This document shows, one piece after another, positions 556-24,636 of a stretch of 64,000 nucleotides of DNA. Location of the stretch: contig JAIOIE010000018.1 of NCBI GenBank assembly GCA_019912665.1, positions 751,433 through 815,432 on the forward strand, written 5' to 3'. The notes under the pieces are model-generated. The model saw nothing but the letters and a program-made list of their open reading frames with translations, was not told the origin of the DNA and searched no databases. This DNA is from Deltaproteobacteria bacterium. Lineage in GTDB: Bacteria; Desulfobacterota; GWC2-55-46. The position numbers and the translations under genes were made by a program. Each line of letters begins with the position of its first letter. The first letter of the stretch is position 1.

Positions 556-655
556 ATGGTAATTGTAATAAGACAATGACTGACGCCTTGTCCGACATAG
601 CATTACGACAACGGTGTTTATATCACTAATTTCTGAGATAGATGTGCACCAACGA

Positions 656-3451: not shown

Positions 3452-3529
3452 GGACCTGCCCCCCGTAAACTGTGCCACTTGTAATTAGAATGGGGTCGTA
3501 ATAAAACATTCTAAACAAGGAGGCTGGGT

Positions 3530-4632: not shown

Positions 4633-4664
4633 TTACGAATGGCATTATAGATGGGGGCAGGTCC

Positions 4665-8100: not shown

Positions 8101-9650
8101 ATGGCACGTCAGACAAAAGACAAAAAGACCCCCAACGGCGGCAATCTCGGCTTTGAGGAAAAGCTCTGGCAGGCCGCTGACAAGATGCGCGGCCATATGG
8201 ATGCTTCGGAATACAAGCATGTAGTCCTCGGCCTCATCTTCCTTAAATACATATCAGACGCCTTCGAAGAGAAGCATCAGAAGCTTATGGAAGATAAATT
8301 TGCCGACCCTGAAGACCGCGACGAATACACCGCTGATAATATCTTCTGGGTTCCGAAGGGTGCCCGCTGGTCTTATCTGCAGGCGAACGCCAAACAACCA
8401 ACTATCGGCAAGCTCGTTGACGATGCGATGGTTGCCATTGAAAAGGAAAACTCCCAGCTTAAAGGAGTCCTCCCCAAAGACTACGCACGCCCGACCCTTG
8501 ATAAACATACCCTAGGCGAACTCATCGATTTAATCGGCACTATCGGCCTTGGCGATGCTGAGAGCCGCTCAAAAGACATACTTGGGCGTGTATATGAATA
8601 CTTCCTTGGACGCTTTGCCGCAGTTGAAGGTAAAAGTGGTGGCGAGTTTTACACTCCTCAGTCCGTCGTAAAAATACTGGTAGAGATGATAGAGCCTTAT
8701 AAGGGTCGTGTCTTTGACCCATGTTGCGGTTCGGGCGGTATGTTTGTTCAATCGGAAAAGTTCGTCGAGGCCCACGGGGGCAGGAAGGGGGATATCTCCA
8801 TCTACGGACAGGAGTCAAACCCCACGACATGGCGTCTGTGCAAGATGAATCTTGCGATAAGAGGCATTGACGGCAATATCGGGCCTCACCATGCGGACAG
8901 CTTCAGGCAGGATATCCATAAAGACCTTAAGGCGGACTTTATCCTTGCAAATCCTCCCTTTAACATAAGTGACTGGAAAGGCGAGCTCCTGATGTCAGAT
9001 GGAAATACGGCGCTCCTCCCGTGGGCAACGCGAACTTTGCCTGGGTTCAGCACTTTATCTACCATCTTTCCCCAAGTGGTGTGGCCGGTTTTGTTCTTGC
9101 GAACGGGTCCATGAGTTCAAATACAAGCGGCGAAGGCGAGATACGAAAGAACATAATCGAAGCCGACTTGGTAGATTGCATGATAGCTCTACCCGGACAG
9201 CTCTTCTATACAACGCCGATTCCTGTGTGCCTCTGGTTTGTAGCCCGTAGTAAGAAAAACGGCAAGTTCCGTGACAGGCGCGGCCAGACGCTCTTTATCG
9301 ATGCCCGAAAAATGGGCTATTTGATAGACAGAACACACAGGGAATTGTCCGATGAAGAGATTCAACGGATAGGTAAGACCTACCATGCCTGGCGAGGTGA
9401 AAAGGAAGCCGGAAAGTATGAAGATATCCCCGGCTTTTGCAAAAGCGCCACAATCGAGGAGATACATAGTCACGGTCACGTCCTCACGCCAGGCAGATAC
9501 GTCGGAGCCGAAGAGGTAGAGGATGACGGCGAGCCGTTTGAAGAGAAGATGAAGCGCCTTACCGCAAAGCTGAGCGCGCAGTTTAAGGAATCGGAGGGGC
9601 TGGAAAAGATTATAAAGGCGAACCTGAAGAGACTGGGGTATGGCGGATAA
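8101..9650 (+). pseudogene. hsdM: Type I R-M methyltransferase subunit HsdM, with a -1 frameshift near 8985-9025
   Basis: NPPFNISDW is in frame 1 up to GELL. The canonical continuation [26 protein letters not shown] is in frame 0. Two overlapping ORFs (8101-9114 and 9021-9650) together make one HsdM. Confidence 0.8.
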
Positions 9651-10752
9651 AAGAAAAACAAAAAAATCCAAATCTGAAATTGTGCAACAGGCTGCTGCAC
9701 AATTGCTATCAACGAGCTACGCTGAATTGCTCGAAGACCTCAAAGCGCGGATTCGCGCCGCGCAGATCCGCGCAGGTCTTGCAGCCAATAGTGAATTGAT
9801 CCAGCTCTACTGGAATGTTGGACAGCAAATATTGCTCCGACAACAAAAAGAGGGATGGGGTGCGAAAGTCATTGACCGCCTTGCCCGTGATTTACGCCGT
9901 GCATTTCCTGATATGAAGGGATTTTCTCCACGCAATCTCAAATACATGCGGGCGTTTGCCGAAACATATCAGGACAAACAATTTGTGCAACAGGTTGTTG
10001 CACAAATCCCCTGGGGGCATAATGTCCGTATTCTTGACCATGTAAAAGAATCGACTCAGCGCGAATGGTATATCCGACAGACCATCCAGCACGGCTGGTC
10101 ACGAGATATCCTTATCCACCAGATAGAAAGCGGTCTCTACAGGCGGCAGGGAAAAGCCATTACCAATTTCGACCGCACCCTACCCACGCCTCAATCCGAG
10201 CTTGCCCGGCAGGTCTTGAAAGATCCGTATGTCTTCGACTTCCTGAGTATCGGTGAGGAGGCAAAGGAACGGGATCTGGAAAAGGCCCTCTTGGAGCAGA
10301 TAAGGGCTTTCCTGCTTGAGTTGGGCGTCGGGTTTGCCTTTGTCGGTAGTCAGTACCATCTGGAGGTCGGCGGTGAGGATTTCTATATAGACCTTCTATT
10401 TTATCATCTCCACCTGCGCTGTTTCGTAGTCATCGAGCTTAAGATTGGGGAATTTCAGCCAGAATACGCTGGCAAGATGAACTTTTATCTTTCGGCGGTG
10501 GATGACCTCCTGCGCCATAAAGACGATCATCCGAGCATCGGCATAATCCTGTGCAAGGCCAAAAATAAGGTGATTGCGGAATATGCGCTCCGCGATACCA
10601 GAAAGCCGATCGGCGTTTCCGGATACAAACTTACGGAAACCTTGCCGAAGAACCTTAAAGGTGAACTGCCGAGCATTAAGGAACTGGAGGGGTCAATTTC
10701 GGCGTCTACTTCTGTATCAGGCTCGCTTACAATAACCAAAGGTGATTCCTGA
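9640..10752 (+). CDS. DUF1016 / YhcG-like PDDEXK nuclease family protein
   Basis: Carries the PDDEXK core [11 protein letters not shown]...ILC and N-terminal YhcG-like residues. It sits in the usual position between hsdM and hsdS. Confidence 0.75.
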
Positions 10753-10858
10753 GGTGATTGACATAATGGATTTGTCACATAAGAAACGGATTTGCGTATC
10801 GTAAATTGCAATTTGCCATACACAAGCTTGTTTGTTGTTATCTGACGATACACAATGA

Positions 10859-11170
10859 TTGACCTATAAGGTCACGAATTGTGACCATATAGAAAGGCCG
10901 CGGGACGCATCGCAAATACCTGCCTTATGTGTTTTTCCAGAGCAGAGAGTCGCCATGCTTTCCAGCGTACTGAACAGCAAAAGAGCGGTAAAGATAAACA
11001 TTGAGATTATGCGAGCGTTCGTAGGCTTCGCCAGATGTTCGCTTCTAACGCCGAGTTGATGCGAAAGATGACCGAACTTGAAAAGAAGTATGACGAGCAG
11101 TTCAAGGTTGTTTTTTAGGCCATTTATGAATTGATGCAGCCGCCGGGGCCAAAGAAAAGGCAGATCGGGT
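10859..11170 (+). pseudogene. ORF6N-domain gene remnant, truncated and frameshifted
   Basis: [27 protein letters not shown] is in one frame. [29 protein letters not shown], then after an in-frame stop, AIYELMQPPGPKKRQIGF are in another. No intact N-terminus is present. Confidence 0.5.
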
Positions 11171-11292
11171 TCAAGGCCGGGAGTAAAGAGTAGTCTTGAA
11201 GTGCCGATTTGGCATTTTAAAACGGCAATGCCTGGTTCGCTATTTATAAGGGATGCCGCAAACGAACAATTCCTATTTGGAAGATTTGAAAG

Positions 11293-12519
11293 ATGCAAGA
11301 TAAAAGCCCGATGACCCATTTAGAAAATATCTGTGAGATTATCATGGGGCAATCTCCAAAGGGAGAAACATATAATACTATAGGCAACGGGACACCTCTT
11401 TTGAATGGTCCAACAGAGTTCGGAGAACATCATCCCAAGCCTGTTTTATATACTACCTCACCTACCAGGCTATGTAAAAAAGGTGACCTGCTTTTCTGCG
11501 TTCGCGGTTCGACGACAGGTCGTATGAATTGGGCGGATGCTGAATATTGTATAGGGCGCGGTGTAGGGGCTTTCCGAGCCAAGAGCGATGAAATCGATAC
11601 TCGATTTATTTATTATACTTTGGTATGTGAATTGCCAAGGCTCCTGTCTCGATGCGCTGGCTCAGTTTTTCCTAATTTATCCCGCTCTGATTTCGAGACT
11701 TTTGATGTCGTGTGGCCTGATAGGAACATACGATCAGCCATCGCCCATATCCTCGGTGCGCTGGATGACAAGATAGAGCTTAACAGGCGAATGAACGAGA
11801 TGCTGGAGGCAATGGCTCGGGCAATCTTCAAGTCCTGGTTCGTGGACTTCGAGCCAATCCCCGGCTTCGGCCCTCACAAAGAATGGCAGGACTCCCCAAT
11901 CGGCAGGATTCCAAAAGGGTGGGATATTGCCACGCTCGGCGACTTCTCCTCATTGAATCCTGAGGTGTGGTCGAAGGAGACGCGCCCGGATGTAATCAAT
12001 TATGTCGATCTCTCGAATACGAAATGGGGCCGAATTGAAACAGTCACAATATATGCGAAAGGAGAAGCACCGAGCCGAGCCCAACGTGTATTGCGAGCAC
12101 AAGACACCATCGTCGGTACCGTGCGCCCCGGTAACGGCTCGTATGCTTTCATTTTAGAAGAAGGATTGACCGGAAGCACCGGGTTCGCAGTACTGAGACC
12201 CCTAAAAGCCGAGTATGCTGAGATTGTATATCTCACCGCCACAGCTGCCGACAATATCGAAAGGCTTGCGCACTTGGCGGACGGTGCAGCCTATCCGGCG
12301 GTGCGGCCTGATGTCGTTGTTGCAACGCAAATAGTTAAGCCAGTCGATAAAGTACTGAGGGCATTCTCTCACATTGTAGCACCATTGCTTGCCAAGATGT
12401 TTGTCAATGAACGAGAATCCCGTACCCTCGGCGCTATCCGCGACGCACTGTTGCCCAAACTCCTATTGGGCGAGATAAGAGTTAAGAATGGGGAGAAGTT
12501 TATAGTGGAGCGGACGTGA
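11293..12519 (+). CDS. hsdS: Type I R-M specificity subunit HsdS (two target-recognition domains)
   Basis: Residues LPKGWDIATLGDF are present. The conserved C-terminal coiled-coil tail is AIRDALLPKLLLGEIRV. Confidence 0.85.
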   Translation: MQDKSPMTHLENICEIIMGQSPKGETYNTIGNGTPLLNGPTEFGEHHPKPVLYTTSPTRLCKKGDLLFCVRGSTTGRMNWADAEYCIGRGVGAFRAKSDEIDTRFIYYTLVCELPRLLSRCAGSVFPNLSRSDFETFDVVWPDRNIRSAIAHILGALDDKIELNRRMNEMLEAMARAIFKSWFVDFEPIPGFGPHKEWQDSPIGRIPKGWDIATLGDFSSLNPEVWSKETRPDVINYVDLSNTKWGRIETVTIYAKGEAPSRAQRVLRAQDTIVGTVRPGNGSYAFILEEGLTGSTGFAVLRPLKAEYAEIVYLTATAADNIERLAHLADGAAYPAVRPDVVVATQIVKPVDKVLRAFSHIVAPLLAKMFVNERESRTLGAIRDALLPKLLLGEIRVKNGEKFIVERT

Positions 12520-13064
12520 TATTAGAATCTGCACCTTGGAAAGATGAGTTGCTTAAAATCGCTTTTCGTTTAGAAAAACGAAAACAGCAGAGAAGGTGGC
12601 TTGAAACTTCATTTGCAAAGCTGGAAATGGAAGTCTTTATTGCAGCTTACTGTATAAGGAAGCTTTTTGAGGCTGCAAAGACTTCCAGTAGTACCACTGC
12701 ATACCAGTTCAATGTGAAGGCATATCGTTTTATCGGTACGAATATAACAAAAATCAACTGGCATGAATTTGACGAGCATTATGACCTTAGAAAGCCAAAG
12801 ATCTTCAGGAAAGACGCCTTGTTTATCTGTAACCAGCTTGTCCACAGTTATGTATTTGCACCGGACCTTAAACGAACTGGAGGATTAAGGGGGATTTTCT
12901 TCTGCTCTGATCGGGAGCGGCACAGTTGGCTATACCTGCTTGCTATTGACGAATTGATACGATATCTGAAGAAAGTAGGCCGAGATTATCCTAACTACAG
13001 TTCATCATGCTTCGACCCAAAAAGGCGTGATTATGTCATCACCCATCAAGAGATGCTTAAATGA
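12516..13064 (+). CDS. Hypothetical protein (182 aa); its GTG start overlaps the hsdS stop (GTGA)
   Basis: Long ORF coupled to hsdS. No recognisable motif. Confidence 0.45.
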   Translation: MILESAPWKDELLKIAFRLEKRKQQRRWLETSFAKLEMEVFIAAYCIRKLFEAAKTSSSTTAYQFNVKAYRFIGTNITKINWHEFDEHYDLRKPKIFRKDALFICNQLVHSYVFAPDLKRTGGLRGIFFCSDRERHSWLYLLAIDELIRYLKKVGRDYPNYSSSCFDPKRRDYVITHQEMLK

Positions 13065-13065
13065 A

Positions 13066-13197
13066 ATGAAAGATAAACTCACAGAATCCATCATCGAAGT
13101 CGCCCTCGCCGCCATCAGCGATGCCCTGTTGCCAAAGCTCCTGTCGGGTGAGATAAGAGTTAAGTATGCAGAGAAGTTTGTGGAGGCTGTATCATGA
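13066..13197 (+). other. Duplicated hsdS 3' tail fragment (43-codon mini-ORF MKDKLTESIIEVALAAISDALLPKLLSGEIRVKYAEKFVEAVS)
   Basis: Near-identical at protein level to the real HsdS C-terminus. Its stop overlaps the next gene's ATG (ATGA). Confidence 0.8.
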
Positions 13198-14384
13198 TTC
13201 CCAAAACTTTTGATGCCATCTCAAAGTCTGACATAGAGGCACTTGTCGAAAATCAGGTGAGAGAAGGACGTACTATCGAGTACAAACAGGTTCTTCTTGG
13301 TAATTCAGACGAGGAGAAACGGGAGTTTCTATCCGATATCTCATCTTTCGCAAACGCGGGCGGAGGTGATTTGTTATATGGCATTTCGGCAACGGATGGC
13401 ATCCCACAGGATGCTTTAGGCCTGGAAAGCAATCTCGATGCTGAATTGCTTCGTTTGGAGAACCTAATCCGAGACAGTCTTGACCCTCGTGTGCATGGAT
13501 TGCGAATGAGAGCGATTGATGGATTCGCAAAAGGTCCTGTCCTGCTCATCCGCATTCCAAGGAGCTGGGCAGGCCCACACATGGTCACATTTAAGAACCT
13601 GTCGCGCTTCTTTACACGAAATAGTGCAGGGAAGCATCAAATGGATGTATTGGAGATAAGATCCGCCTGTTTGCTTGCAGATGCCTTGCCTGAAAAGATG
13701 AGACGCTTTCGTGACGAACGGCTGGGGAGGATAATCGCAAGCGCGACGCCCGTTCGCATGTTTGAGGGTGCAAAACTTGTGCTCCACATTTTGCCAGTTG
13801 CTGCTTTTACGTCGGACGCGAGCATTGAAGTGGCTGTCTTAAAGGCACGCTCTATGAGCAGTCTACGACCTATTGGAGCTTCAGGGTGGAATGACGGGTA
13901 CAATCTGGACGGCTTTCTTACCTATAGCGGCCCGTATGATAGCGCTGGATCAAGGGCATATTCGTTACTATTCCGAAAAGGGCAAATTGAGGCTGTTTTT
14001 GCGGATTTAGTAAGAGAGCGCGATGATCGGAGGTTTATTCCGAGCGTAGCCTATGAAGAATATATTATTCAAGGGGTCTTAGGTTATTTAGGCGTTTTGA
14101 AATCGTTAGAGATTCCGAGCCCGCTGGTGCTCTTTGTCTGCATGACAGGGGTGGCAAATGTGCATATGGGTGTTGACACCTTTTATTTTTCACATGGCGG
14201 CAGCCCCATAGACCGCGACACGCTGGTTCTGCCTGACATCCTTGTTGATGATTACGAATCCATAAATGATAAAAATGCGGTAGCCGGCGTTCTTCGACCG
14301 ATTTTTGACGCCGTTTGGAATGCATGCGGTTTTGAGCGCTCTTTCAATTTTGACGATAAAGGAAATTGGAAACCACGTAGATAA
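13194..14384 (+). CDS. AlbA_2 / Schlafen-like putative DNA-binding (divergent AAA) domain protein
   Basis: N-terminal EYKQVLL...ISSFANAGGGDLLYGI signature. This family is commonly embedded in R-M loci. Confidence 0.6.
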   Translation: MIPKTFDAISKSDIEALVENQVREGRTIEYKQVLLGNSDEEKREFLSDISSFANAGGGDLLYGISATDGIPQDALGLESNLDAELLRLENLIRDSLDPRVHGLRMRAIDGFAKGPVLLIRIPRSWAGPHMVTFKNLSRFFTRNSAGKHQMDVLEIRSACLLADALPEKMRRFRDERLGRIIASATPVRMFEGAKLVLHILPVAAFTSDASIEVAVLKARSMSSLRPIGASGWNDGYNLDGFLTYSGPYDSAGSRAYSLLFRKGQIEAVFADLVRERDDRRFIPSVAYEEYIIQGVLGYLGVLKSLEIPSPLVLFVCMTGVANVHMGVDTFYFSHGGSPIDRDTLVLPDILVDDYESINDKNAVAGVLRPIFDAVWNACGFERSFNFDDKGNWKPRR

Positions 14385-14492
14385 AAAGAGCTGGAAAAAA
14401 CTCTCGCCGCCATTCGCGATGCGCTTTTGCCAAAGTTGCTGTCGGGCGAGATAAAGGTAAAGGATGCGGAGAAGCTTGGGGAGGTAGTTTGA
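14385..14492 (+). other. Second duplicated hsdS 3' tail fragment (KELEKTLAAIRDALLPKLLSGEIKVKDAEKLGEVV), in frame directly after the AlbA_2 stop
   Basis: 36 codons with no start codon. It ends 1 nt before the next ATG. Confidence 0.8.
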
Positions 14493-14493
14493 C

Positions 14494-16413
14494 ATGGCAT
14501 TCACGGAGACACTGACAAGCTTAGCAATGCTAAAGGTCAACATTGATCAGGGTAAGGACTACCTCGAATATCTGCGACCTTTTATTCTGCAGATACTTAT
14601 TGACCAGAAGCCCGACCCCGTGACTGATGTGGTTGTCCGTGATCATCTTCGCACACAATTTGGCCTTGAGATTCCGGAGCGTGTTGCTCAGATTCTATTG
14701 AAGCGCATCTCTCGGTCGTATCTACTAAAGCGTGAAACTGGGGTATATCGAATCACGGGTACTTTACCAAACCCTGGGATTACTGCAAAGAAAACTGAAG
14801 CAGATCGACACATCAAGGCAGTGGTCTCAAGTCTGATAGAGTTCTCAAAGAACACCGCTAAGCCGATTACAACCGAAGATGAGGCGGTTACAGCCATTTG
14901 CGCATTCCTGGCAGAGTTCAATATCCCTTGTCTTCGTGCATACTTGAGAGGTACGGCCATTCCAACTGTCGAGGGCAAACACCATAGCCACATTGTGCTG
15001 GTCAGTGAGTATGTCGTACATCTGCAACGCACCAACCCTGAACGTTTTGAAAGCTTCCTCGTGGTGGTTCAAGGGCACATGCTGGCAAACGCCTTGCTTT
15101 GCCCAGACCTCCAAAACGCCCCAAAGTCATACAAGGGCGTCACTTTTTATTTAGATACCCCATTGTTGATACGACGGCTTGGGCTTGAGGGTAATCCAAA
15201 GCAGGCGGCGGCAGTAGAGCTAATCCGACTGCTGAAGAATCTTGATGCGGCCGTTGCTACGTTCGCACATTCGCGTGATGAACTGGATCGTGTGATCAGG
15301 GGCGCAGCCGATCATATAGAAGCACCGAGCGGCCGCGGGGCCATTGTTATGGAAGCAAGACGCAAAGGCACGACCAAATCTGACCTACTGCTCTTGGCAG
15401 GACAAATCGATGAGAAGCTCGCCGACTCTGGAATTGAGGTGAAGTGCACACCGAAATATATTGCAAACTTTCAGATCGATGAAACAGCTTTCGCTAAGGT
15501 ACTTGAGGATGAGGTGTCATACTTTAACTCGCGTGCCATGGATTATGATATCAACTCTGTGCGAAGTATCTATGCACTTAGGGTAAATTCGTCCCCCACG
15601 ATTGTGGAAAAGTGCGGAGCAGTTCTCGTCAGCAGTAATGAAGGTTTTGCACGGGCAGCATATGAGTACGGACAGCGGCATGAAGAGTCGCGCGAGGTGT
15701 CAAGCGTGATCACCGACTTCAGCCTGGCAAACATGGCTTGGTTGAAAGCTCCGATGGGTGCGCCGTCTCTACCGACCGCTGAGATACTCGCATTCTCTTA
15801 TGCAGCACTTCAGCCCTCAAAGGAGTTGCTTGACAAGTTTTTGGATGAGATGAATAAGTTGGAGAAACAAGGCAAGATTACTGCACGCGATCATCAGCTC
15901 CTCAGGAGTAGCACACTTGCACAAGAGGAGATGATGAGCCTGACGCTGGGAGAAGAGACAGCGCTTACCGAGAAGACGGTCACCGAGACACTGCGGCGCG
16001 TTTCAGAAGAAATCAAGAAGGAGGAAAGCGAGAAGCTTACAGCCGAGCAAATTGCTCATCGCAAAACTCAAGTTGAGCTTGATGCCGAACGTGTGACGAA
16101 AAAGCAAATTCAGGAACGGTTTTTCTGGCGATGTCTGAAGAATGCACAATACTGCGCGTGGGGGATTTCAGGGTTTATCTCTATTCTCATAATTGGTGGC
16201 ATCATTGCCGGATTCGGGCTCAAAGCGGCAAATCCTGCTCTTGGCTGGGTGCTTCTCGTAGGTTTGTCTGCACTGGCAATTGCGACAATAGCGAATCTTA
16301 TTTTCGGTGCTACTGTCCAGCAATTGCACAACTACATCGAAGAACGATGTCTTAAATTCTTTTTAAAACGCGTGTTTAAATCAAGCGGGATTGACATCGA
16401 GAATAGACTATGA
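14494..16413 (+). CDS. Hypothetical 639-aa protein with a C-terminal coiled coil and two predicted transmembrane helices
   Basis: Long ORF. The C-terminus GISGFISILIIGGIIAGFGL...WVLLVGLSALAIATIANLIFG is hydrophobic. No recognisable catalytic motif. Confidence 0.55.
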   Translation: MAFTETLTSLAMLKVNIDQGKDYLEYLRPFILQILIDQKPDPVTDVVVRDHLRTQFGLEIPERVAQILLKRISRSYLLKRETGVYRITGTLPNPGITAKKTEADRHIKAVVSSLIEFSKNTAKPITTEDEAVTAICAFLAEFNIPCLRAYLRGTAIPTVEGKHHSHIVLVSEYVVHLQRTNPERFESFLVVVQGHMLANALLCPDLQNAPKSYKGVTFYLDTPLLIRRLGLEGNPKQAAAVELIRLLKNLDAAVATFAHSRDELDRVIRGAADHIEAPSGRGAIVMEARRKGTTKSDLLLLAGQIDEKLADSGIEVKCTPKYIANFQIDETAFAKVLEDEVSYFNSRAMDYDINSVRSIYALRVNSSPTIVEKCGAVLVSSNEGFARAAYEYGQRHEESREVSSVITDFSLANMAWLKAPMGAPSLPTAEILAFSYAALQPSKELLDKFLDEMNKLEKQGKITARDHQLLRSSTLAQEEMMSLTLGEETALTEKTVTETLRRVSEEIKKEESEKLTAEQIAHRKTQVELDAERVTKKQIQERFFWRCLKNAQYCAWGISGFISILIIGGIIAGFGLKAANPALGWVLLVGLSALAIATIANLIFGATVQQLHNYIEERCLKFFLKRVFKSSGIDIENRL

Positions 16414-16472
16414 CCCCTTCAAGAATCACTGAATCTACCGCTGAAGAGGCTCTTTACGGTTGGCGAGATTGA
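16410..16472 (+). other. Duplicated hsdR 5' head fragment (MTPSRITESTAEEALYGWRD*), overlapping the orf639 stop (ATGA)
   Basis: Matches the real HsdR N-terminus [19 protein letters not shown] at 17334. Confidence 0.75.
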
Positions 16473-17125
16473 TTATAAAAAAATCTAATCGCTATGACAC
16501 CTCTGGCTTAACAGAGGCACAGTTTGAGCCTGGTTCGGGTCGGCGTGTGCTCAAGAATTTGCTCGGAATTAAGAGCAAGCGGGAGATGGACCGCATCGAA
16601 GCACTTGTTCAGCTTCCTGTTCTGGAGGAACTATCCAGCATCTATGATAAAGACCATAGGTTCACCGCCGCTGATATATGCAGGATTCACGAGATCTGGC
16701 TTGGGAGAATATATGAGTGGGCTGGACAATACAGGAGAGTAAATGTCAGCAAGGGAGACTTCCCTTTCGCAGCCGCCGGACATATACCAAGTTTAATGTC
16801 AGAGTTTGAAAAGAAGCTTCTTAAGAAATACACTCCTTGTCTTTACTCAGCACATAAAGACATAGTCAAGGCAATTGCTGTTGTCCATACAGAACTGGTT
16901 TTGATTCACCCCTTTCGCGAAGGGAACGGCAGGGTTGCCCGTATACTAAGTGCCCTGATGGCGTTACAGGCAGGATTGCCGTCACTGGATTTTACTGGAA
17001 TTAAGGGGAAGAGAAGACAAGAATACTTTGCGGCGGTAAGGGCTGGTATGGATAATAATTATGAGCCTATGGAAAAGATTTTTAACGCCGTGATTTCCCG
17101 GACACTACGGATTCAGAAAGGATAG
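16460..17125 (+). CDS. Fic/Doc family protein; start codon uncertain (TTG at 16460 or a downstream ATG)
   Basis: Fic motif HPFREGNGRVAR is present. Confidence 0.8.
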   Translation: MARLIIKKSNRYDTSGLTEAQFEPGSGRRVLKNLLGIKSKREMDRIEALVQLPVLEELSSIYDKDHRFTAADICRIHEIWLGRIYEWAGQYRRVNVSKGDFPFAAAGHIPSLMSEFEKKLLKKYTPCLYSAHKDIVKAIAVVHTELVLIHPFREGNGRVARILSALMALQAGLPSLDFTGIKGKRRQEYFAAVRAGMDNNYEPMEKIFNAVISRTLRIQKG

Positions 17126-17333
17126 CTATCTTGCCGGGCTCTTTAACAGCCTTGATTGCTTTGTCGACTGCCGCGTGGACACCTTCGATAGCGGTTGAAG
17201 AAGATACAGTAGTATAGAACATGGCTTTACGCTTCTCAGGGTCTTTCAGATAAGGATTCGTTTTTATTAAAGGTTTTTTTACCATATTTTAAGTATACAC
17301 TAAAAAACCATAGAAATCACCGGGATTTTTAAA

Positions 17334-20300
17334 ATGACCTTATCAAGAATCACCGAATCAACCACTGAAGAAGCTACCCTCGACTGGTTCAATGAACTGG
17401 GTTACTCTATCCTCAGCGGCCCTGATATTGCCCCTGGTGAACCGCTCGCCGAAAGGTCGGGTTATGGCGATGTCGTTTTAGAGGGCCGGCTCCGTTCTGC
17501 TTTATCCAGAATAAATGCCGCCATTCCTTCAGAAGCTATAGAAGATGCCATCCGTAAGCTCCTGCGAGCTGTCCATGAGTCCCCCCTTCTTTACATCAAT
17601 AATCACCGCTTCCATAAGGTCCTTACCGATGGGATCGATATTGAATACAAAAATTCTGAAGGACGGATTGTTGGGGACAAAGTCTGGCTCATTGATTTCA
17701 ATAATCCTGGTAACAACGACTGGCTGGCGGTCAATCAGTTTACGGTTGTCGAGGGACAAAGCAACAGACGCCCTGATGTAGTGGTTTTTATCAACGGGCT
17801 CCCTTTAGGGGTTATTGAGCTAAAAAACCCGGCAGACGAAAACGCCACGATAAAGAATGCTTTTAATCAGCTTCAGACTTATAAAAACGAAATCCCCTCC
17901 CTTTTTTCCTATAACGAAATTCTTATAGTCTCAGACGGTCTTGAGGCGAGGACTGGCACCCTAACTGCCGATTGGGAATGGTTCATGCCGTGGCGGACTA
18001 TTGAGGGTGAGGATTTGGCGCCCAAAGGGATGCCGGAGCTTGAGGTGTTAATCAAGGGGATATTCGACAAGTCGAGATTCCTGGATATCCTCAGATACTT
18101 TGTTGTTTTTGAGACGGACGGGGCGCTTGTCATAAAGAAGATGGCCGCCTACCATCAGTTCCATGCAGTAAACAGGGCTGTAGACTGCACATTGACTGCG
18201 GCTTCTCCGAGGGGAGACAGAAGGGTTGGAGTAGTCTGGCACACGCAGGGAAGCGGCAAAAGCCTGACCATGACCTTTTATGCTGGAAAGATTATTCAGC
18301 GCCATGAGATGGAAAACCCCACCCTTATTGTCCTTACTGACAGGAACGACCTTGACGACCAGCTGTTCGGCACTTTTTCAAGGTGTCTGAGCCTCTTGAG
18401 GCAGACCCCTGTCCAATCCCGGAGCAGAGAGCACCTTAAAGAACTTTTGAGTGTCGCTTCGGGCGGGGTTGTTTTTACCACTATACAGAAGTTTCTCCCC
18501 GAAAAGGGGCTGGATTACCTAAGACTTTCGGATAGAAGCAATATAATCGTCATCGCTGACGAGGCCCACAGGAGCCAATACGATTTCATAGATGGTTTTG
18601 CAAGGCACATGAGGGACGCCGTGCCCAAGGCGTCCTTTATCGGCTTTACCGGCACACCCATTGAAGCTGACGACAGAAACACGCCCGCCGTCTTCGGCAA
18701 CTATATAAGCATATATGACATCCAGCGGGCCGTTGAGGACGGAGCCACTGTGCGTATCTACTATGAGGCGCGCCTTGCGAAGCTTGAGCTGAAGGCAGAG
18801 GAGCTCCCCAGGATAGACCCTGAGTTTGAGGAAATAACGGAGGGCGAGGAAGAAGCGACTAAAGAGAAACTCAAGCGGAAATGGGCGCAGTTTGAGGCGA
18901 TGGTGGGGACTGAAAAGCGCATCGGTCTTGTGGCAGAGGATATTGTTGAGCACTTTGAAAGCAGACTTGAAGCCATGGACGGCAAGGGGATGGTAGTCTG
19001 CATGAGCCGCAGGATCTGCATTGACTTGTACAACGCTATTGTGAAACTGCGGCCAGAGTGGCACAGCGAGGACGACGACAGAGGGTTTTTGAAAATTGTA
19101 ATGACCGGGTCCGCAAGCGACCCTGCGGACTGGCAAAGCCATATCAGAAATAAGGCGCGCAGGGAATCCATGGCCAAGAACTTTAAAAAACCGGACAACC
19201 CCTTTAAGTTAGTTATAGTCCGGGACATGTGGCTTACCGGGTTTGACGCCCCCTGCCTCCATACAATGTACATAGATAAACCGATGCGCGGACATGGACT
19301 CATGCAAGCGATAGCCCGTGTGAACAGGGTATTTAAGGATAAGCCTGGCGGGCTTGCTGTGGATTATCTTGGCATAGCGGATGAACTCAAAAAGGCCCTT
19401 TCGAATTACACTGAAAAAGACCGCGATATTACCGGCATCCCGCAGGAAGAGGCTGTCGCTGTGATGCTGGAGAAATTTGAGATAGTCTCGGCGATATTGC
19501 ATGGTTTTGACTATTCAGGGTTTCTCAAAGGCGCTCCATCTGAGAAACTGACAACCGTAAAGGAAGCGCTGGAGCATATCCTTGCTCTCGAAGACGGAAA
19601 AAATAGGTTTATGCAGGCGGTTACGGAGCTTTCAAGGGCGTTTGCGCTTTCAGTGCCACATGAAAAAGCGATGGCTATTAGGAATGACGTCGGGTTTTTC
19701 CAAGCGTTAAGGGGAGCCTTTGCCAAGAATACCGTGACCGACGGCAAAAGCCCGGAGATGCTTGATTCGGCAATACGGCAGATCGTCTCAAAGGCTGTGG
19801 CATCCGGAGAGGTAATCGACATCTTCTCTTCAGCGGGCCTCAAGAGGCCGGACATCTCGATTCTGTCGGATGAGTTCCTGGAAGAGGTCCGCAATATGCC
19901 GCAGCGTAACCTCGCCTTAGAACTTTTAAAAAAGCTGTTGAACGATGAGATAAAGGCACGCTCCAAAAAGAACCTGGTGCAGGCAAGATCTTTTGCGGAA
20001 ATGCTTGAGGAAACCGTAAGGAGGTATCAGAACCGTGCCATCGAGGCCGCCCAGGTCATAACCGAGCTTATCGATCTTGCAAAAGACATGAGGGAAGCCC
20101 ACAAGCGGGGTGAGAAGCTTAATCTTACCGAAGAAGAGGCCGCCTTCTACGATGCACTTGAGACCAACGACAGCGCGGTCCATGTCCTCGGCGACGAAAA
20201 GCTGAAAATAATAGCCAGAGAGCTGGTCGAGACTGTAAAAAGAAATGCGACGATAGACTGGACGGTCAAGGAAAGCGTTAAGGCTAAGCTTAGGACTATG

Positions 20301-20408
20301 GTAAAGCGTATACTCCGGAAATACGGCTATCCACCAGATATGCAGGAGAAGGCGACAAAAACCGTTTTGGAGCAGGCGGAGCTTCTTGGCGCTAACTGGG
20401 CAGCGTAA
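17334..20408 (+). CDS. hsdR: Type I restriction enzyme R subunit HsdR
   Basis: N-terminal HsdR_N region. Helicase motifs GSGKS and DEAH-equivalent ADEAHRSQ are present. Length 1024 aa. Confidence 0.9.
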
Positions 20409-20493
20409 GTAAAGCGATAGTGGACGGCACAGGATTGGATTGCGGTTTTCAAAAGGGGTAATACACTGGGGAAGCGCATGAAAACAGTTTAAA

Positions 20494-20670
20494 ATGACCT
20501 TCTGTCCATGCGGAAGTGTTAAGAAGTTTAAGAAATGCTGTATGTCTGGACAGGCCAGCAGGTCTGGGCTCCCTGGGATGCAGGAAATCACAGATGAAAT
20601 TAAGAAGGAATTCGTGACCACCCTGCAGGCTCTCTCGCCGAGACTCAGGTGGTTGCCAATCGCTTCATAG
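20494..20670 (+). CDS. Small SEC-C-motif (CPCGS..KKFKKCC) zinc-binding protein, 58 aa
   Basis: Metal-binding motif CPCGSVKKFKKCC at the N-terminus. Short, so coding status is uncertain. Confidence 0.35.
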   Translation: MTFCPCGSVKKFKKCCMSGQASRSGLPGMQEITDEIKKEFVTTLQALSPRLRWLPIAS

Positions 20671-20707
20671 ACGCGTAGGAACAGATCTGACTTGTTGAAT
20701 TCTCGGA

Positions 20708-22525
20708 TTGTCACCTGAGCAGATGCTAAAGTTTCTGGGTGTTTTTTCTTATAGGAGGCTGTTGATGGCTATTGATATAAATTGGTTTTTGATGACGGAT
20801 ATAAAAAAACGTTCTTTAATCAAGGCATCCTGGACTCCGTTATGCGCGTATGATGAACATACAATAAATGGAGAACCTGGCCATATTGGATATGAGAGAG
20901 AATATTTTGGATCGGTTGGTCTTATTTTCCCTATTGATCAGGCACGAGAAGCATTCTTGCTTCAATGGGATGAAGTTATCCCAAAATGGGGGCATAAGCC
21001 TTGCGTTGAAAACGGGAAATATTTTCCTGCGGATGTTTATTCTTTTTGCAATGGCTTGCTAGGTACCTATCCTGTATTACAACAGTCATTTGATAGCGGT
21101 GAGCCTTGTGTATGGCATCTGTCGCAAGACATCATTTTAGGGCTTGGATTATTACGTGAAAGAGATGGCTGGGTTCGTCCCCAAGAAGACTATTTGGAAG
21201 TTGCTCGGCTTAAGCGCATTCAGGAAGGAAAGCCTGTGCGCTTTGAAATACGAACGGAGCATCTCCGCGATTTTCTTTGCGCCAGGGAATCCGGGATATT
21301 AATTGTCACATATCATTTGAGAGAAATAATCGTGGACTCTGCACCAGATTTTGGGTGGAAGAACGGAATCGCAAATGAGACTGGAGAAAATTATCATTGG
21401 AATGGACATATTCATCCTATTCACGAAGGTGGATTCCCATTCGGAGAAAAGATAGCAGTCTTCCACATGGGTAGAACTAATATCGATCCTAATGACGATA
21501 TACCGACCTTTGGCATGCCTGGAGAAGATGAATACAAGTCGAGCTCTTGGGTAAGGACGCCTACTGGTCGGCAGCTTTTTAGCATTACGGGTGAAATGTG
21601 GAGGACCGAATGGATTCCTCCATTAGAGACTAGTCCTCGGGTCAGAGGTGATAAGGAAGAGTCACACATATCGTTTCAGATCGACAGTGCTGGAACCACT
21701 TTAGCTGGTAAGAAGCTTTATGACCATAGAGGATGGATCTGGTTCAAGCCATCAATAATTCGCACTCTGCTGGAAAAGCGAAACGGGGTTCTCGAATGGT
21801 ATACCGATGAGACTGGTTGTGTTGGCCCTGCTCCTAATATGGGAGTACATTTTGGTGTCAACGAGCTTGGCTTAATTAATGTATTGGCAAAGGATATAGC
21901 CTCATTACCAACTATCTATCAGCGCGTATGGGTGGCACACAATATACCTCCTGACGGCCGAGTTTCAAAAGAATTACTAAAGTCGCAGATGGAGGCGGAA
22001 CCAGCCGATACAAAAGCTCCGGAAGTCATACTAAAAAAGGCGATTGAACATCTTCAGAAAGCGTCCACTTATTTTCTTGGTCGGCCCATGCTCAAAGAGC
22101 ATCACATTTCAACGAAAATCGATCGTGAAATTCATAGATTCCATGGACAGAGCATGGAAGGCTTGTTTTTTCTTTGCAAAGAGTTGACAAGGTTAATAGT
22201 AGAGCGAATAGATGTCGATTTATTAAAGGAGCTTGACCCCGCTGCTGACAAAAAATTAGGCTCTATTAAGCGGCTGGAATATTTCCTTAATTCTAAAGGT
22301 TTTGAAGGACGTAAAATCATGGCAGCACTGGCTGGTGTTTACGACTTACGTATAGGGGACTCTCATTTGCCTTCTACAGAGATTACGGAATCTTTGAAAC
22401 TGCTGGGCATTGGAGACACTGGTGATTACCAGAAAATGGCGAAACAAATAATTCTTTCCGTTGCGTATTCTATAGGGACAATAGGAGATATCATAATAAA
22501 GTCTAGCAAAGACAATAGGGCTTAG
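20708..22525 (+). CDS. Hypothetical 605-aa protein at the island edge, no recognisable domains
   Basis: Long ORF with lower GC than the core. The start may be the internal ATG at codon 20. Confidence 0.5.
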   Translation: MSPEQMLKFLGVFSYRRLLMAIDINWFLMTDIKKRSLIKASWTPLCAYDEHTINGEPGHIGYEREYFGSVGLIFPIDQAREAFLLQWDEVIPKWGHKPCVENGKYFPADVYSFCNGLLGTYPVLQQSFDSGEPCVWHLSQDIILGLGLLRERDGWVRPQEDYLEVARLKRIQEGKPVRFEIRTEHLRDFLCARESGILIVTYHLREIIVDSAPDFGWKNGIANETGENYHWNGHIHPIHEGGFPFGEKIAVFHMGRTNIDPNDDIPTFGMPGEDEYKSSSWVRTPTGRQLFSITGEMWRTEWIPPLETSPRVRGDKEESHISFQIDSAGTTLAGKKLYDHRGWIWFKPSIIRTLLEKRNGVLEWYTDETGCVGPAPNMGVHFGVNELGLINVLAKDIASLPTIYQRVWVAHNIPPDGRVSKELLKSQMEAEPADTKAPEVILKKAIEHLQKASTYFLGRPMLKEHHISTKIDREIHRFHGQSMEGLFFLCKELTRLIVERIDVDLLKELDPAADKKLGSIKRLEYFLNSKGFEGRKIMAALAGVYDLRIGDSHLPSTEITESLKLLGIGDTGDYQKMAKQIILSVAYSIGTIGDIIIKSSKDNRA

Positions 22526-22723
22526 TTGTCTAAAGCCTTATTAGCACCAGGGGATGAATGGACTTCAATTTAATTCTGAGTAGCTATTAGCGTAACCAAA
22601 ACGTAACCGAAATCGTCAAAAAAGGCCTTAAACGGCGGAAAATACGTAAAGGACGGAAGGCCGAAAAACATTTATTTTTCAACTATGTGCAGGTAAAAGG
22701 CCCGGTTATGATTTTTGATTTAA

Positions 22724-22772
22724 CGCGCTCATAACCCGAAGGTCGCAGGTTCAAATCCTGTCCCCGCTACCA
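22724..22772 (+). other. 3' half of a tRNA-fMet gene (anticodon loop CTCATAA to CCA); att-like remnant, not an intact tRNA
   Basis: CGCGCTCATAACCCGAAGGTCGCAGGTTCAAATCCTGTCCCCGCTACCA resembles the initiator tRNA-Met anticodon/T-arm/acceptor 3' strand. No D-arm or 5' acceptor is present upstream. Confidence 0.7.
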
Positions 22773-22779
22773 AATTAAA

Positions 22780-22816
22780 CCCCTGAAATCTAAACGGATT
22801 TCAGGGGTTTTTCTTT
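22780..22816 (+). terminator. Rho-independent terminator hairpin CCCCTGAAATC-taaac-GGATTTCAGGGG followed by a T-run
   Basis: Perfect 11-12 bp stem followed by TTTTTCTTT. Confidence 0.7.
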
Positions 22817-22937
22817 GAAAACTGATTTTCTCTGAATCAACTTGGTTCTGTTTTTAATCTTTAAATAACTAATATAATTTCAAATCCATTTTAACTAAAC
22901 CTATTCAGATAGGTTTAGTATTTACAAAAAATTATTA

Positions 22938-24509
22938 TTGAGTTATAACAGGTTGCCTTTAAATTTTAATTTCTACTTGGAGACGGTGATGAAAAAGAAC
23001 ACGCTATGTCGATTTTTAAAGAAAGCAAGTTTAATCCTTTCCGCGCCTTTCATAGCATTGGGATTTATGGCAACGATGATGGCCGGGTGTGGCGGCGGTG
23101 GCTCTTCAAGCAGTGGCGCAGCTACCGCAACGGGCCTCTTGGTAGATAGCGCCGTTCAAGGGGTAAGCTATGTGTCCGGCGGCCAGTCCGGCGTGACCGG
23201 GGCTGACGGCTCTTTTACATATGAGGTCGGGAACACGATTACATTCTCAATAGGCAATATCGTACTCGGCAATGTAGGTATAGAGCCAAAGGGGATCATG
23301 ACGCCGCTCGATCTGGCGGGAGCAGTAGACGCGACAGACACGGCAGTAGTGAACCTGGCCATTTTTCTTATGACCCTGGACAGCGACCAGGACCCCTCGA
23401 ACGGGATAGAGATCGAACCGGACGTAAGGACCGCCGCCGCCTCCCCATCTGTCACGCAGATAGATTTTTCTACTGCTAACGTGGGTGATCTTACATCCTT
23501 ACTAGGCGTGCTCACATCAAGTCCCGTTGTAAGCGCTGAGGATGCTTTGTCCCATGTGTCTGGCAGCATACTTAATCTCTATGCGGGATCGTACACTGGC
23601 ACATTTGCCGGCGATGATTCAGGGACCTGGAGCGCGACCATCGACTCGGATGGAGTAATAACCGGGACCTTTACCGGAACTAGCAGCGGCACCCTCAGCG
23701 GCAGTATCGACACGAGCGGAAGCATGTTCTTCTCTACCAGCGGGAACACTTCCGAAGGCACTGTATTCAGCGGCACCATTGACATTTCTACCGGTTCGGC
23801 GGCGGGCACCTGGAGTGATGATGAGGACTCCGGGACGTATGCGGGCAATAAAATATCCTCGATTATAGGCTCTTGGTACAGCGGCACGGGTCCTGACGAC
23901 CTGGTCGTACTCACCTTTTTTGAAGACGGGACCTACATGTTCTCCCAAGACGGGAATGCCGCGCAGCATGGAGATGAAGGCCAGGATGGAATGGAGCGCG
24001 GCACGTATGCCTGGGATTCCAGCACCGGAGCCTTCACGGCATCTCCGGCTGTAGACACAAGCGGTGACTGGGGGCTCTCACATCCTCAGGGCACCGTGAC
24101 CGTACAGATCAACGGCAATGTAATGACAATGACCGATTCCGTAGAGGGCATATATACCGCAGTTCGCGTTACAAACGGCAGCGGCTCGATTGTCGGCAGC
24201 TGGTATAATGGCAGCACCTCTCAGACCAATAATCTTGTCATACTGACTTTTTTTGAGGACGGCACCTACATGTTTTCCCAGGACGGGAATGCCGCGCAGC
24301 ACGGAGATGGGGGGCAGGATGGAATGGAACGCGGTACTTATGCCTGGGATTCCGGCACAGGGGCCTTCACGGCGACCCCGGCTGTAGACACAAGCGGTGA
24401 ATGGGGGCTTTCACACCCCGATGGCAGCGTGACGGTGCAGGTCAACGGCAATAATATGACTATGACCGATTCAGGAGGCGGCATTACCGCAACGCGTATC
24501 CTGCCATAG
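22938..24509 (+). CDS. Probable secreted lipoprotein, G/S/T-rich, with two near-identical ~105-aa tandem repeats
   Basis: Signal peptide with lipobox-like MMAGC. The repeats SWY.G....L.ILTFFEDGTYMFSQDGNAAQHGD.GQDGMERGTYAWDS.TGAFTA.PAVDTSG.WGLSHP cover ~23,880-24,500. Confidence 0.6.
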   Translation: MSYNRLPLNFNFYLETVMKKNTLCRFLKKASLILSAPFIALGFMATMMAGCGGGGSSSSGAATATGLLVDSAVQGVSYVSGGQSGVTGADGSFTYEVGNTITFSIGNIVLGNVGIEPKGIMTPLDLAGAVDATDTAVVNLAIFLMTLDSDQDPSNGIEIEPDVRTAAASPSVTQIDFSTANVGDLTSLLGVLTSSPVVSAEDALSHVSGSILNLYAGSYTGTFAGDDSGTWSATIDSDGVITGTFTGTSSGTLSGSIDTSGSMFFSTSGNTSEGTVFSGTIDISTGSAAGTWSDDEDSGTYAGNKISSIIGSWYSGTGPDDLVVLTFFEDGTYMFSQDGNAAQHGDEGQDGMERGTYAWDSSTGAFTASPAVDTSGDWGLSHPQGTVTVQINGNVMTMTDSVEGIYTAVRVTNGSGSIVGSWYNGSTSQTNNLVILTFFEDGTYMFSQDGNAAQHGDGGQDGMERGTYAWDSGTGAFTATPAVDTSGEWGLSHPDGSVTVQVNGNNMTMTDSGGGITATRILP

Positions 24510-24543
24510 CGGTTCAGGTAAATTAAGTTAAGCGGGTTCATAT

Positions 24544-24636
24544 CTGGCACAATAACCAGAGCTCGAGGTTCAACTCCTCTCTCCGCTACCAAATTAAAGC
24601 CCCCTGAACCTTTTGGTCCAGGGGGCTTTTGTAATT
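24544..24636 (+). repeat. Degenerate second copy of the tRNA 3' fragment plus terminator hairpin (direct repeat of 22724-22816)
   Basis: AGGTTCAACTCCTCTCTCCGCTACCAAATTAAAGCCCCCTGAACC...GGTCCAGGGGGCTTTT is alignable to the first copy, including the CCGCTACCAAATTAAA junction. Confidence 0.6.

What the first reader, a model, noticed from the sequence alone, without database searches (positions are those of the whole stretch)
22724..24636. Two direct copies of a tRNA-fMet 3' half plus terminator mark stacked integration scars at the island boundary
Copy 1 (22724-22816) reads from the anticodon loop (CTCATAA, anticodon CAT) through the T-arm to CCGCTACCA, then a perfect terminator hairpin. It has no D-arm or 5' acceptor strand, so it is an att-type partial tRNA rather than a gene. 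Copy 2 (24544-24636) is a diverged duplicate of the same ~90 bp, including the CCGCTACCAAATTAAA junction and a hairpin. Everything left of copy 1 is lower-GC defence cargo, the two copies bracket a repetitive lipoprotein gene, and the core GC (~60%) resumes after copy 2. This fits two successive island integrations into the 3' end of a tRNA-fMet gene whose intact copy would lie outside the window. No integrase is present in the window.
Basis: partly seen in the sequence, partly recalled or inferred. Interest (0 to 1): 0.6.

Follow-up and report, generated by a model that had tools for sequence, protein, structure and literature searches.

The report
tRNA-fMet island boundary with old scar
The two partial initiator-tRNA copies are leftovers of mobile DNA inserting into the initiator tRNA gene: the first is the exact right-hand junction of a 38-kb anti-phage defence island whose integrase lies 15 kb outside the window, and the second is an older, decayed remnant, so this is a real but ordinary kind of feature.

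Summary
Copy 1 (core 22727-22774) is the 3' part of tRNA-fMet, from the anticodon loop to CCA plus 2 nt. No tRNA is called anywhere in the window. A contig of the same strain is 100% identical to window 1-3506. It extends 15.2 kb further left and starts with the identical 48 nt, followed by a different terminator, a 388-aa tyrosine integrase and an excisionase-like gene. Copy 1 is therefore the attR of a 37.9-kb island in tRNA-fMet. The island carries SIR2-HerA, Shango, a type I R-M system and other defence genes. The 140-nt arm left of copy 1 is 91-93% identical to partial tRNA-fMet copies in four other groundwater Desulfobacterota MAGs that carry different cargo. In one of these MAGs the intact tRNA-Met, the same integrase (92% aa) and an Xis-like gene lie on another contig. 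A 21-nt motif, AGCGTAACCAAAWCGTAACCG, marks both arms. Copy 2 (24548-24591 plus terminator) is a real but diverged duplicate. It most resembles the tRNA-fMet 3' end plus terminator of a related MAG. An older insertion scar is the best reading of copy 2, but this is unproven: the segment between the copies holds only an orphan lipoprotein gene and no integrase. This is a new member of a well-known kind, and interest is low.

The parts
1..22726 (.). Right 22.7 kb of a 37.9-kb integrative defence island. The island continues 15.2 kb left of the window, to window-equivalent position -15217.
   Evidence: GC is 0.47. Cargo found: HerA C-terminus; Shango SngC (656-2866), SngB (split, 2866-3417 and 4629-5429) and SngA (5398-7740); a type I R-M system (hsdM 8101-9650, hsdS 11293-12519, hsdR 17334-20408); YhcG; SLFN/AlbA_2; Fic. 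L104 and L001 are 100% identical to window 1-3506 and carry int, xis, AbiEi, a GapS1-like gene, SEC-C, Fic and SIR2-HerA further left.
22586..22726 (+). Element-side arm of attR (right end of the island).
   Evidence: Window 22572/22584-22779 is 91-93% identical to the flank of partial tRNA-fMet copies in L015, L067, L090 and L100. The homology stops on both sides of this stretch.
22589..22609 (+). 21-nt motif AGCGTAACCAAAACGTAACCG (two CGTAACC heptads), a candidate arm-type integrase-binding site.
   Evidence: It is unique in the window, with 0 expected by chance. The same motif, in the same orientation, occurs only in attR arms (L067, L090, L114) and attL arms (L104-106, L016, L042, L084, L088) among 118 loci. 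Its function is inferred.
22727..22774 (+). Copy 1: the attR core. It is the 3' 46 nt of tRNA-fMet (G31 to CCA76) plus AA.
   Evidence: It is 100% identical to L104 1-48, the attL copy in the same strain. Contigs L007, L008, L105, L106 and L116 all break inside it. No tRNA is called here.
22777..22810 (+). Terminator 1: the intrinsic terminator that followed the tRNA gene before the 38-kb island arrived.
   Evidence: A 15-bp perfect stem followed by a T run. It is not shared with attL, which has a different hairpin, GGCCGTAATTCC..GGGGTTACGGCC.
22989..24509 (+). Orphan lipoprotein gene (506 aa) between the two copies, preceded by a 25%-GC spacer (22817-22988).
   Evidence: Signal peptide with lipobox MAGC. 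Internal 333-bp duplication at 84% identity. The only full-length match is itself; the next best hit is 61% identical over 43% of the query. No Pfam family.
24548..24591 (+). Copy 2: a diverged relic of the tRNA-fMet 3' part. It has an 8-nt loop CACAATAA with no CAT, a shortened variable region, a T arm GAGG/CCTC and the acceptor 3' strand TCTCCGCT-ACCA.
   Evidence: Window 24552-24630 is 83% identical to the intact tRNA-fMet plus terminator of L076. The sequence upstream (24510-24547) cannot be assigned to a tRNA 5' half (p 0.2-0.8) or to the element arm (p 0.06-0.27).
24596..24629 (+). Terminator 2: the hairpin behind copy 2.
   Evidence: -25.5 kcal/mol, z -5.6. It is close to the terminator of the intact tRNA-fMet in GWA2_55_10: AAAGTCCCCTGAACCGAAAGGTTCAGGGGACTTTTTG. 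The T tract is weak.

Best explanation
Copy 1 is the attR junction of a 37.9-kb integrative island inserted into the initiator tRNA gene (tRNA-fMet). The island's tyrosine integrase recombines an element-borne copy of the tRNA's 3' part (anticodon loop to CCA plus 2 nt, 48 bp) with the chromosomal gene. At the left end (attL, 15.2 kb outside the window) the tRNA is rebuilt from the chromosomal 5' part and the 48-bp core. It is then followed by an element-supplied terminator, the integrase gene (convergent with the tRNA) and an HTH_17 excisionase-like gene. At the right end the displaced 3' part and the terminator that previously followed the gene remain as copy 1, directly after a conserved 140-nt element arm. 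Both arms carry the same 21-nt double-heptad motif, which probably binds the integrase. The cargo is anti-phage defence: SIR2-HerA, Shango, type I R-M, AbiEi, a GapS1-like gene and Fic. Copy 2 is most likely an older displaced tRNA-fMet 3' end with its terminator. An earlier insertion at the same gene pushed it outward, and of that insertion only the lipoprotein gene survives. Shown: the 48-bp perfect repeat, integrase and Xis at attL, the conserved arms, the varying cargo, and an intact tRNA at attL in relatives. Inferred: the tRNA 5' half in the source strain, the recombination chemistry, the function of the arm sites, and the origin of copy 2 (about 0.55).
For: L104 and L001 are the same sequence as the window (100% over 3506 nt). 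L104 1-48 equals window 22727-22774. L104 carries int (PF00589; phrog_1 at 1e-66) and an HTH_17/excisionase gene next to that copy. Three contigs start inside the tRNA part at attL and three inside it at attR, as expected for a repeat. The attL module (L104 1-1539) is 92.5% nt identical to L042 and L016, where ARAGORN finds an intact tRNA-Met(CAT). The integrase is 92% aa identical to that of L042. The attR arm is conserved in L015, L067, L090 and L100, with different cargo and different host terminators. In two cases the same MAG holds both the attR arm and the attL module: L100 with L042 (intact integrase), and L067 with L088 (only the first 438 nt of the attL module, an integrase C-terminal remnant). 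The 21-nt motif occurs only in these arms. For copy 2, four points support an older scar. It is outermost and most diverged. Its terminator matches that of the intact gene in L076. The lipoprotein is an orphan. L084 has the layout tRNA, integrase remnant, two genes, diverged partial copy. Extra tRNA-fMet 3' fragments downstream of the gene are common in this lineage.
Against: The 5' half of the tRNA at attL was not seen in the source strain, because the contigs break at the repeat. No island-free relative with a syntenic empty site was found. No excised circle or attB junction was observed. For copy 2, the inter-copy segment has no integrase, and no arm was detected at significance. Two of the differences in copy 2 are compensatory stem changes (29:41 G-C to T-A; a T-stem C-G to G-C). 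The chance of this under random decay is about 0.009, a post hoc figure. That is unexpected for a copy that was once identical and then drifted.
Confidence: 0.85

Rival explanations
1. Copy 2 is not an integration scar. It is the relic of a second complete tRNA-fMet gene, either a tandem paralogue or an element-borne tRNA. That gene lost its D arm and anticodon after a functional copy existed upstream. Copy 1 is still the attR of the 38-kb island.
For: The region 24531-24591 can be drawn as a D-arm-less cloverleaf: AGCGGG pairs with TCCGCT, TCTGG with CCAGA, and GAGG with CCTC (z -2.2). Both strands of the anticodon stem are present. Two stem changes are compensatory (p about 0.009), which suggests a past under structural selection. 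Tandem arrays of tRNA-fMet genes exist in Halodesulfovibrio (L077, L098).
Against: The alignment of 24510-24547 to the tRNA 5' half is not better than shuffles (p 0.2-0.8). The Rfam tRNA model gives no hit at copy 2, even at E of 10 or less. Other elements' attR copies also include part of the anticodon stem 5' strand (L048, L049, L056). A protein gene ends 22 nt upstream of the putative 5' end.
Confidence: 0.3
2. The two copies are unrelated to integration. They are chance similarity, a dispersed repeat or MITE, or a functional split or half tRNA gene.
For: There is none beyond the bare repeat. Copy 1 with its arm scores 20 bits against the tRNA model.
Against: Copy 1 is identical to the tRNA 3' part in about 80 genomes. 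It forms a 48-bp perfect repeat with a copy that abuts an integrase in the same strain. There are only two copies in 64 kb, with 0 expected by chance. No tRNA is called.
Confidence: 0.01
3. The island/chromosome junction at copy 1 is a misassembly, a chimeric join through the repeated tRNA sequence.
For: Several short-read assemblies break exactly at this repeat.
Against: ENA contig NODE_631 (151 kb) crosses the junction and is 100% identical to window 15449-37278. The same arm-plus-partial-tRNA junction is assembled in four other MAGs.
Confidence: 0.02

Closest known systems
Genomic islands and prophages integrated in tRNA genes by tyrosine integrases, anticodon-loop sublocation (Reiter 1989 and Williams 2002, cited as refs 52-53 in PMC9897764; Islander/TIGER resource, PMC12424338).
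   Same: The integrase sits next to the intact tRNA. A direct repeat of the tRNA 3' part (48 bp, starting at the anticodon loop) lies at the other end. The element restores the gene. The displaced fragment is not a gene. TIGER/Islander reports that 33.8% of 1.75 million islands lie in tRNA or tmRNA genes (PMC12424338).
   Different: Nothing differs in principle. This int/att family in uncultivated groundwater Desulfobacterota has not been described, as far as these tools can show. The target is the initiator tRNA. The integrase carries a Cys4 insertion.
PYG1 of Pyrococcus yayanosii: a 21.4-kb island between partial and complete tRNA-Gln copies, flanked by 44-bp direct repeats (described in PMC9897764).
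   Same: The anatomy is the same: complete tRNA, island, then a partial tRNA copy formed by a repeat of about 45 bp. The partial copy is liable to be mistaken for a gene.
   Different: PYG1 is in an archaeal host with a different tRNA and different cargo. Here neither ARAGORN nor Infernal miscalls the fragment.
Tandem or accreted island arrays at tDNA hot spots (TIGER resolves 'tandem arrays', PMC12424338; Klebsiella Asn tDNA hot spots, PMC4891358; phage-ICE tandems, PMC13651849).
   Same: There are three co-oriented att-like copies (attL, copy 1, copy 2). The outermost is the most decayed, as expected when new elements enter at the functional gene.
   Different: The outer segment is only 1.7 kb and has no integrase, so at best it is a remnant. 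An array in the strict sense, where each unit has its own integrase, is not present.
Lambda-type attP organisation: core flanked by arm-type integrase-binding sites, with Xis for directionality (established knowledge, from memory).
   Same: An identical 21-nt double-heptad motif lies about 120-140 nt left of the core and about 90-110 nt right of it. An HTH_17/excisionase-like gene lies next to int.
   Different: Binding has not been tested. The right-hand motif lies inside the last 20 codons of int.

Membership tests
tRNA-integrated genomic island (Islander-type definition) | Integrase gene inside the island, near one end | tested here: met
   L104 100-1266 encodes a 388-aa protein matching PF00589 and phrog_1 (1e-66). 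Its stop codon lies 52 nt from the end of the 48-bp core (core ends at L104 48, stop codon at 100-102), and L104 is the same strain as the window.
tRNA-integrated genomic island (Islander-type definition) | Direct repeat of a tRNA fragment at the far end (attR) matching the tRNA end at attL | tested here: met
   48 bp at 100% identity between L104 1-48 and window 22727-22774.
tRNA-integrated genomic island (Islander-type definition) | Complete, functional-looking tRNA gene at attL | tested here: inconclusive
   In the source strain the contigs start at G31 of the tRNA, so the 5' half is not assembled. In relatives with the same attL module (L042, L016, L088, L084) ARAGORN finds an intact tRNA-Met(CAT).
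tRNA-integrated genomic island (Islander-type definition) | Empty site (uninterrupted tRNA with the same right flank) in a related genome | tested here: not met
   None of the 91 tRNA-fMet loci shares the right flank. The relatives' orthologues of the 613-aa gene lie in another context. The JGI scans were empty. This reflects lack of a close relative in the collections; it is not evidence against the island.
Tandem island array | Three or more co-oriented att copies | tested here: met
   attL (L104 1-48), copy 1 and copy 2 are all on the + strand. Copy 2 is diverged.
Tandem island array | Each unit has its own integrase or recognisable element ends | tested here: not met
   The segment 22775-24547 holds only a lipoprotein gene. 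It has no integrase remnant (the blast of L104 against the window matched only the 48 nt) and no significant arm.
Functional tRNA gene | Full cloverleaf recognised by a tRNA finder or the Rfam model at gathering score | tested here: not met
   ARAGORN finds 0 genes. RF00005 scores 20 bits, below 29, at copy 1 and gives no hit at copy 2.
Intrinsic terminator | GC-rich hairpin followed by a U tract | tested here: met
   Terminator 1 fully meets the definition. Terminator 2 has a strong hairpin but only CTTTTG after it.

The most novel reading that the evidence does not exclude
Island traffic has repeatedly overwritten the 3' two-thirds of this lineage's initiator tRNA gene. On this reading copy 2 preserves an older, once-functional variant. 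It has U29:A41 instead of the first of the three conserved G-C pairs, and a compensated T stem. Elements carrying the canonical sequence later replaced it. The cell's present initiator tRNA would then be a chimera whose anticodon loop to 3' end is supplied by mobile DNA.
Probability: 0.12. Interest if true: 0.45.

Novelty: new member of a known kind. Interest (0 to 1): 0.2.

Why it matters
The result fixes the exact right boundary (22774) and size (37.9 kb) of a defence island in an uncultivated Desulfobacterota genome. It identifies the island's integrase, Xis and att module. It shows that the same module carries entirely different defence cargo into the initiator tRNA gene of several groundwater lineages. 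That is useful for annotation, because the partial tRNAs should not be called as genes, and for cataloguing carriers of defence systems. It does not change the current understanding of how such islands work.

Tried and rejected
1. Looking for the source genome among GTDB representatives with the 45-mer. It returned 91 loci, none of them the source.
2. Following the SEC-C protein's cluster representative. This led to a different island, at tRNA-Asn in another organism. The exact cluster member (P0135) then gave the right contig.
3. Searching for an empty site through orthologues of the 613-aa right-flank protein. Orthologues at 77% and 57% identity lie in an unrelated, conserved context with no tRNA nearby.
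4. Searching for relatives of the lipoprotein. No close orthologue exists, and the JGI metagenome scan was empty.
5. A JGI scan for the attL junction sequence: 0 hits.
6. Testing copy 2 as a full-length tRNA relic or as an attR with the family arm. Anchored and local alignments were not significant, so neither reading was adopted.
7. Looking for a third, more decayed copy in the window. None was found.
8. Looking for phage structural, replication or conjugation genes in the island. Pfam and PHROGs found none, so the island was not called a prophage or an ICE.
9. Running Rfam on the conserved 190-nt unit seen in relatives. It matched no family.
Full report
THE OBSERVATION

At 22727-22772 the + strand reads GCTCATAACCCGAAGGTCGCAGGTTCAAATCCTGTCCCCGCTACCA. 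This covers the anticodon loop with CAT, the CCCGA strand of the initiator-type anticodon stem, the variable loop, the T arm, the acceptor 3' strand and CCA. AATTAAA follows, then a perfect 15-bp hairpin at 22777-22810 with a T run (-22.6 kcal/mol, z -7.7). ARAGORN finds no tRNA in the whole window. At gathering thresholds Rfam reports only a cobalamin riboswitch. In a permissive search the tRNA model reaches 20 bits (gathering score 29) at 22699-22769 and nothing at copy 2.

Copy 2 shares the block AGGTTCAAMTCCTNTCYCCGCTACCAAATTAAA at 24566-24598. The pattern has two matches in 64 kb and none in 100 shuffles. The ungapped repeat is 37 nt at 89% identity. Copy 2 is followed by its own strong hairpin at 24596-24629. 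Both copies are real and related.

WHAT LIES LEFT OF COPY 1

Positions 1-22726 have 47% GC, against 55-58% to the right. The region encodes:
- the C-terminus of HerA;
- a Shango system: SngC 656-2866; SngB, split by an IS3-like element; SngA 5398-7740;
- a type I R-M system with inserted YhcG, SLFN/AlbA_2 and Fic genes;
- several proteins with no family match.

FINDING THE OTHER END

A look-up of the SngC protein returned contigs of a 'Desulfobacterota UBA5799' MAG and several Logan assemblies. These are 100% identical to window 1-3506 and break at the IS. By way of an exact cluster member I obtained the rest of that ENA contig as L104. The conversion is window coordinate = L104 coordinate - 15218. 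L104 begins with 48 nt that are identical to window 22727-22774. The next features are:
- a different hairpin, GGCCGTAATTCC...GGGGTTACGGCC;
- a 388-aa tyrosine integrase on the opposite strand (PF00589; phrog_1 at 1e-66);
- a 69-aa HTH_17/excisionase-like gene;
- AbiEi_4, a GapS1-like protein, SEC-C, Fic and SIR2-HerA.

Two further contigs start inside the same tRNA part. Three contigs that carry the lipoprotein start inside copy 1. This is the behaviour expected of a 48-bp repeat in de Bruijn assemblies. The island therefore runs from window-equivalent -15217 to 22774, a length of 37.9 kb including the IS. Copy 1 is its attR. The tRNA 5' half in the source strain was not recovered.

COMPARATIVE SUPPORT

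A scan of GTDB species representatives with the 45-mer gave 91 loci. About 80 are intact tRNA-Met(CAT) genes with the 5' half (C/T)GCGGGGTGGAGCAGTCCGGTAGCTCGTCGGG. They show a 1:72 mismatch and three G-C pairs next to the anticodon loop, which are initiator features.

Four loci (L015, L067, L090, L100) are partial copies. Their upstream 140-150 nt are 91-93% identical to window 22572/22584-22726. Beyond that stretch the cargo differs, and downstream each has a different host terminator.

For MAG SJ296 the attR locus is L100. Another contig of the same MAG (L042) holds the following features in order:
- an intact tRNA-fMet;
- the GGCCGTAATTCC hairpin;
- an integrase 92% identical in protein to the one in L104;
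- an HTH_17 gene;
- a WYL/WCX regulator.

L016 has the same module. L088 (the same MAG as L067) and L084 keep only remnants of it.

The 21-nt motif AGCGTAACCAAAWCGTAACCG occurs once in the window, at 22589-22609, with 0 expected by chance. Among 118 fetched loci it occurs only in these attR and attL arms, always co-oriented with the tRNA. In the excised form the two copies would flank the core, as arm-type sites do in lambda-like attP. Binding is inferred, not tested.

No phage structural, replication or conjugation genes were detected. The element is therefore best described as an integrative defence island whose means of transfer between cells is unknown.

COPY 2

Similarity to the tRNA runs from about 24548 to 24591. 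The loop is CACAATAA (8 nt, no CAT), the variable region is shortened, and several positions are substituted.

Window 24552-24630 is 83% identical to the intact tRNA-fMet plus terminator of the related MAG GWA2_55_10 (L076). The terminators behind copy 1, copy 2, L076 and L086 are all variants of CCCCTGAA...TTCAGGGG. The lipoprotein between the copies has no close orthologue and follows a 25%-GC spacer.

The accretion model holds that new elements enter at the functional gene and push older junctions outward. It predicts what is seen: a perfect repeat for the inner, young island and a decayed outermost copy. L084 gives a precedent. It has an intact tRNA, 205 nt of the attL module including an integrase remnant, two ordinary-looking genes, and then a diverged partial tRNA copy with a different terminator. 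Additional 3' fragments downstream of tRNA-fMet occur in many of the loci.

Against a firm conclusion:
- The inter-copy segment has no integrase.
- The 38 nt upstream of copy 2 cannot be assigned to the family arm (p 0.06-0.27) or to a tRNA 5' half (p 0.2-0.8).
- Two of the stem differences in copy 2 are compensatory, with p about 0.009 under random decay, a post hoc figure. This hints that copy 2 descends from a variant that once functioned, not from a sequence identical to copy 1.

I therefore give an older integration scar about 0.55, a relic of a second whole tRNA gene about 0.3, and other origins the remainder.

THE RIGHT FLANK

Orthologues of the 613-aa membrane protein (25437-27278), at 77% and 57% identity, lie in a conserved context: amine oxidase, the orthologue, cation ATPase, then the COX genes. 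That context is unrelated to the window and has no tRNA nearby. A RadC gene lies at 28757-29440. No empty-site comparator could be found in the collections.

COMPARISON WITH WHAT IS KNOWN

Partial tRNA genes created by integration of mobile elements are described as pervasive in Bacteria and Archaea. The PYG1 island, with 44-bp repeats between a complete and a partial tRNA-Gln, is a close anatomical parallel (PMC9897764). The TIGER/Islander resource reports that a third of 1.75 million islands lie in tRNA or tmRNA genes, and it explicitly resolves tandem arrays (PMC12424338).

This finding is thus a new member of a known kind. The second, stacked event remains a reasonable but unproven inference. 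Interest is low.

Noticed in passing
window 3418-4628: An IS3-like insertion sequence (orfA about 3515-3793; orfB 3943-4632 with HTH_21 and rve domains) splits the Shango SngB/BrxD-like ATPase gene into 4629-5429 and 2866-3417. All short-read contigs of this strain break at 3506, so the IS is probably multicopy.
   Followed up: partly
window 8101-9650: The type I R-M methylase gene hsdM is split into two overlapping ORFs in different frames (8101-9114 and 9021-9650). This is either a frameshifted pseudogene or a sequencing error.
   Followed up: no
window 33255-33445: A cobalamin riboswitch on the + strand (RF00174, 112.9 bits), upstream of a CbiM-family gene.
   Followed up: no
window 23901-24484: The lipoprotein gene contains a 333-bp tandem duplication (23901-24151 and 24234-24484, 84% identity). 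Its repeat domain has hundreds of distant homologues, some with PEP-CTERM or RTX annotations.
   Followed up: partly
L025 4546-4760; L067 7412-7587; also L057, L080, L075, L090: In related MAGs a conserved unit of about 190 nt (78-86% identity) follows the tRNA-fMet or attR terminator. It starts GGCAGGATTTGAA, an inverted repeat of the T-loop region. It ends with a 21-nt copy of the tRNA T-loop-to-CCA segment plus its own terminator. It has no Rfam match. It is either a second class of tRNA-fMet scar (T-loop sublocation) or a small RNA gene. It is absent from the window.
   Followed up: partly
L084 2001-6700: GWB2_55_19 shows an intact tRNA-fMet, 205 nt of the attL module (integrase remnant), an NMT1-like gene and a GGDEF/EAL gene. 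A diverged partial tRNA copy at 6598-6668 with a different terminator follows. This is the same stacked layout as in the window.
   Followed up: partly
L104 100-1266 (integrase): The integrase has a Cys4 (zinc-ribbon-like) insertion, CSACS...CPQC, before the HDLRHT box. The 21-nt arm motif overlaps its last 20 codons (ENGYDLVTL).
   Followed up: no
L101/L102 8797-19400: In another organism (JGI metagenomes) a module at 85-88% nt identity to L104 lies in an island at tRNA-Asn(GTT). The module includes SEC-C, the 127-aa protein and AbiEi; part of the int-xis region also matches at 86-88% nt. The analogous motif next to int there is CGTAGCCAAAACGTAGCC. Island modules are evidently exchanged between elements with different tRNA targets.
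   Followed up: partly
window 24543-24579: Relative to the tRNA, copy 2 keeps stem pairing through double changes (anticodon stem 29:41 G-C to T-A; T stem C-G to G-C). The chance under random decay is about 0.009. This is unexplained if copy 2 simply decayed from the copy 1 sequence.
   Followed up: partly
window 25437-29852: The genes right of copy 2 (the 613-aa membrane protein, an SRPBCC protein, RadC and a response regulator) are not syntenic with the nearest relatives. The variable region may therefore extend beyond copy 2.
   Followed up: partly
L077 2335-3418; L098 6414-7277: Halodesulfovibrio genomes carry tandem arrays of four to five tRNA-fMet copies, 200-320 nt apart.
   Followed up: no
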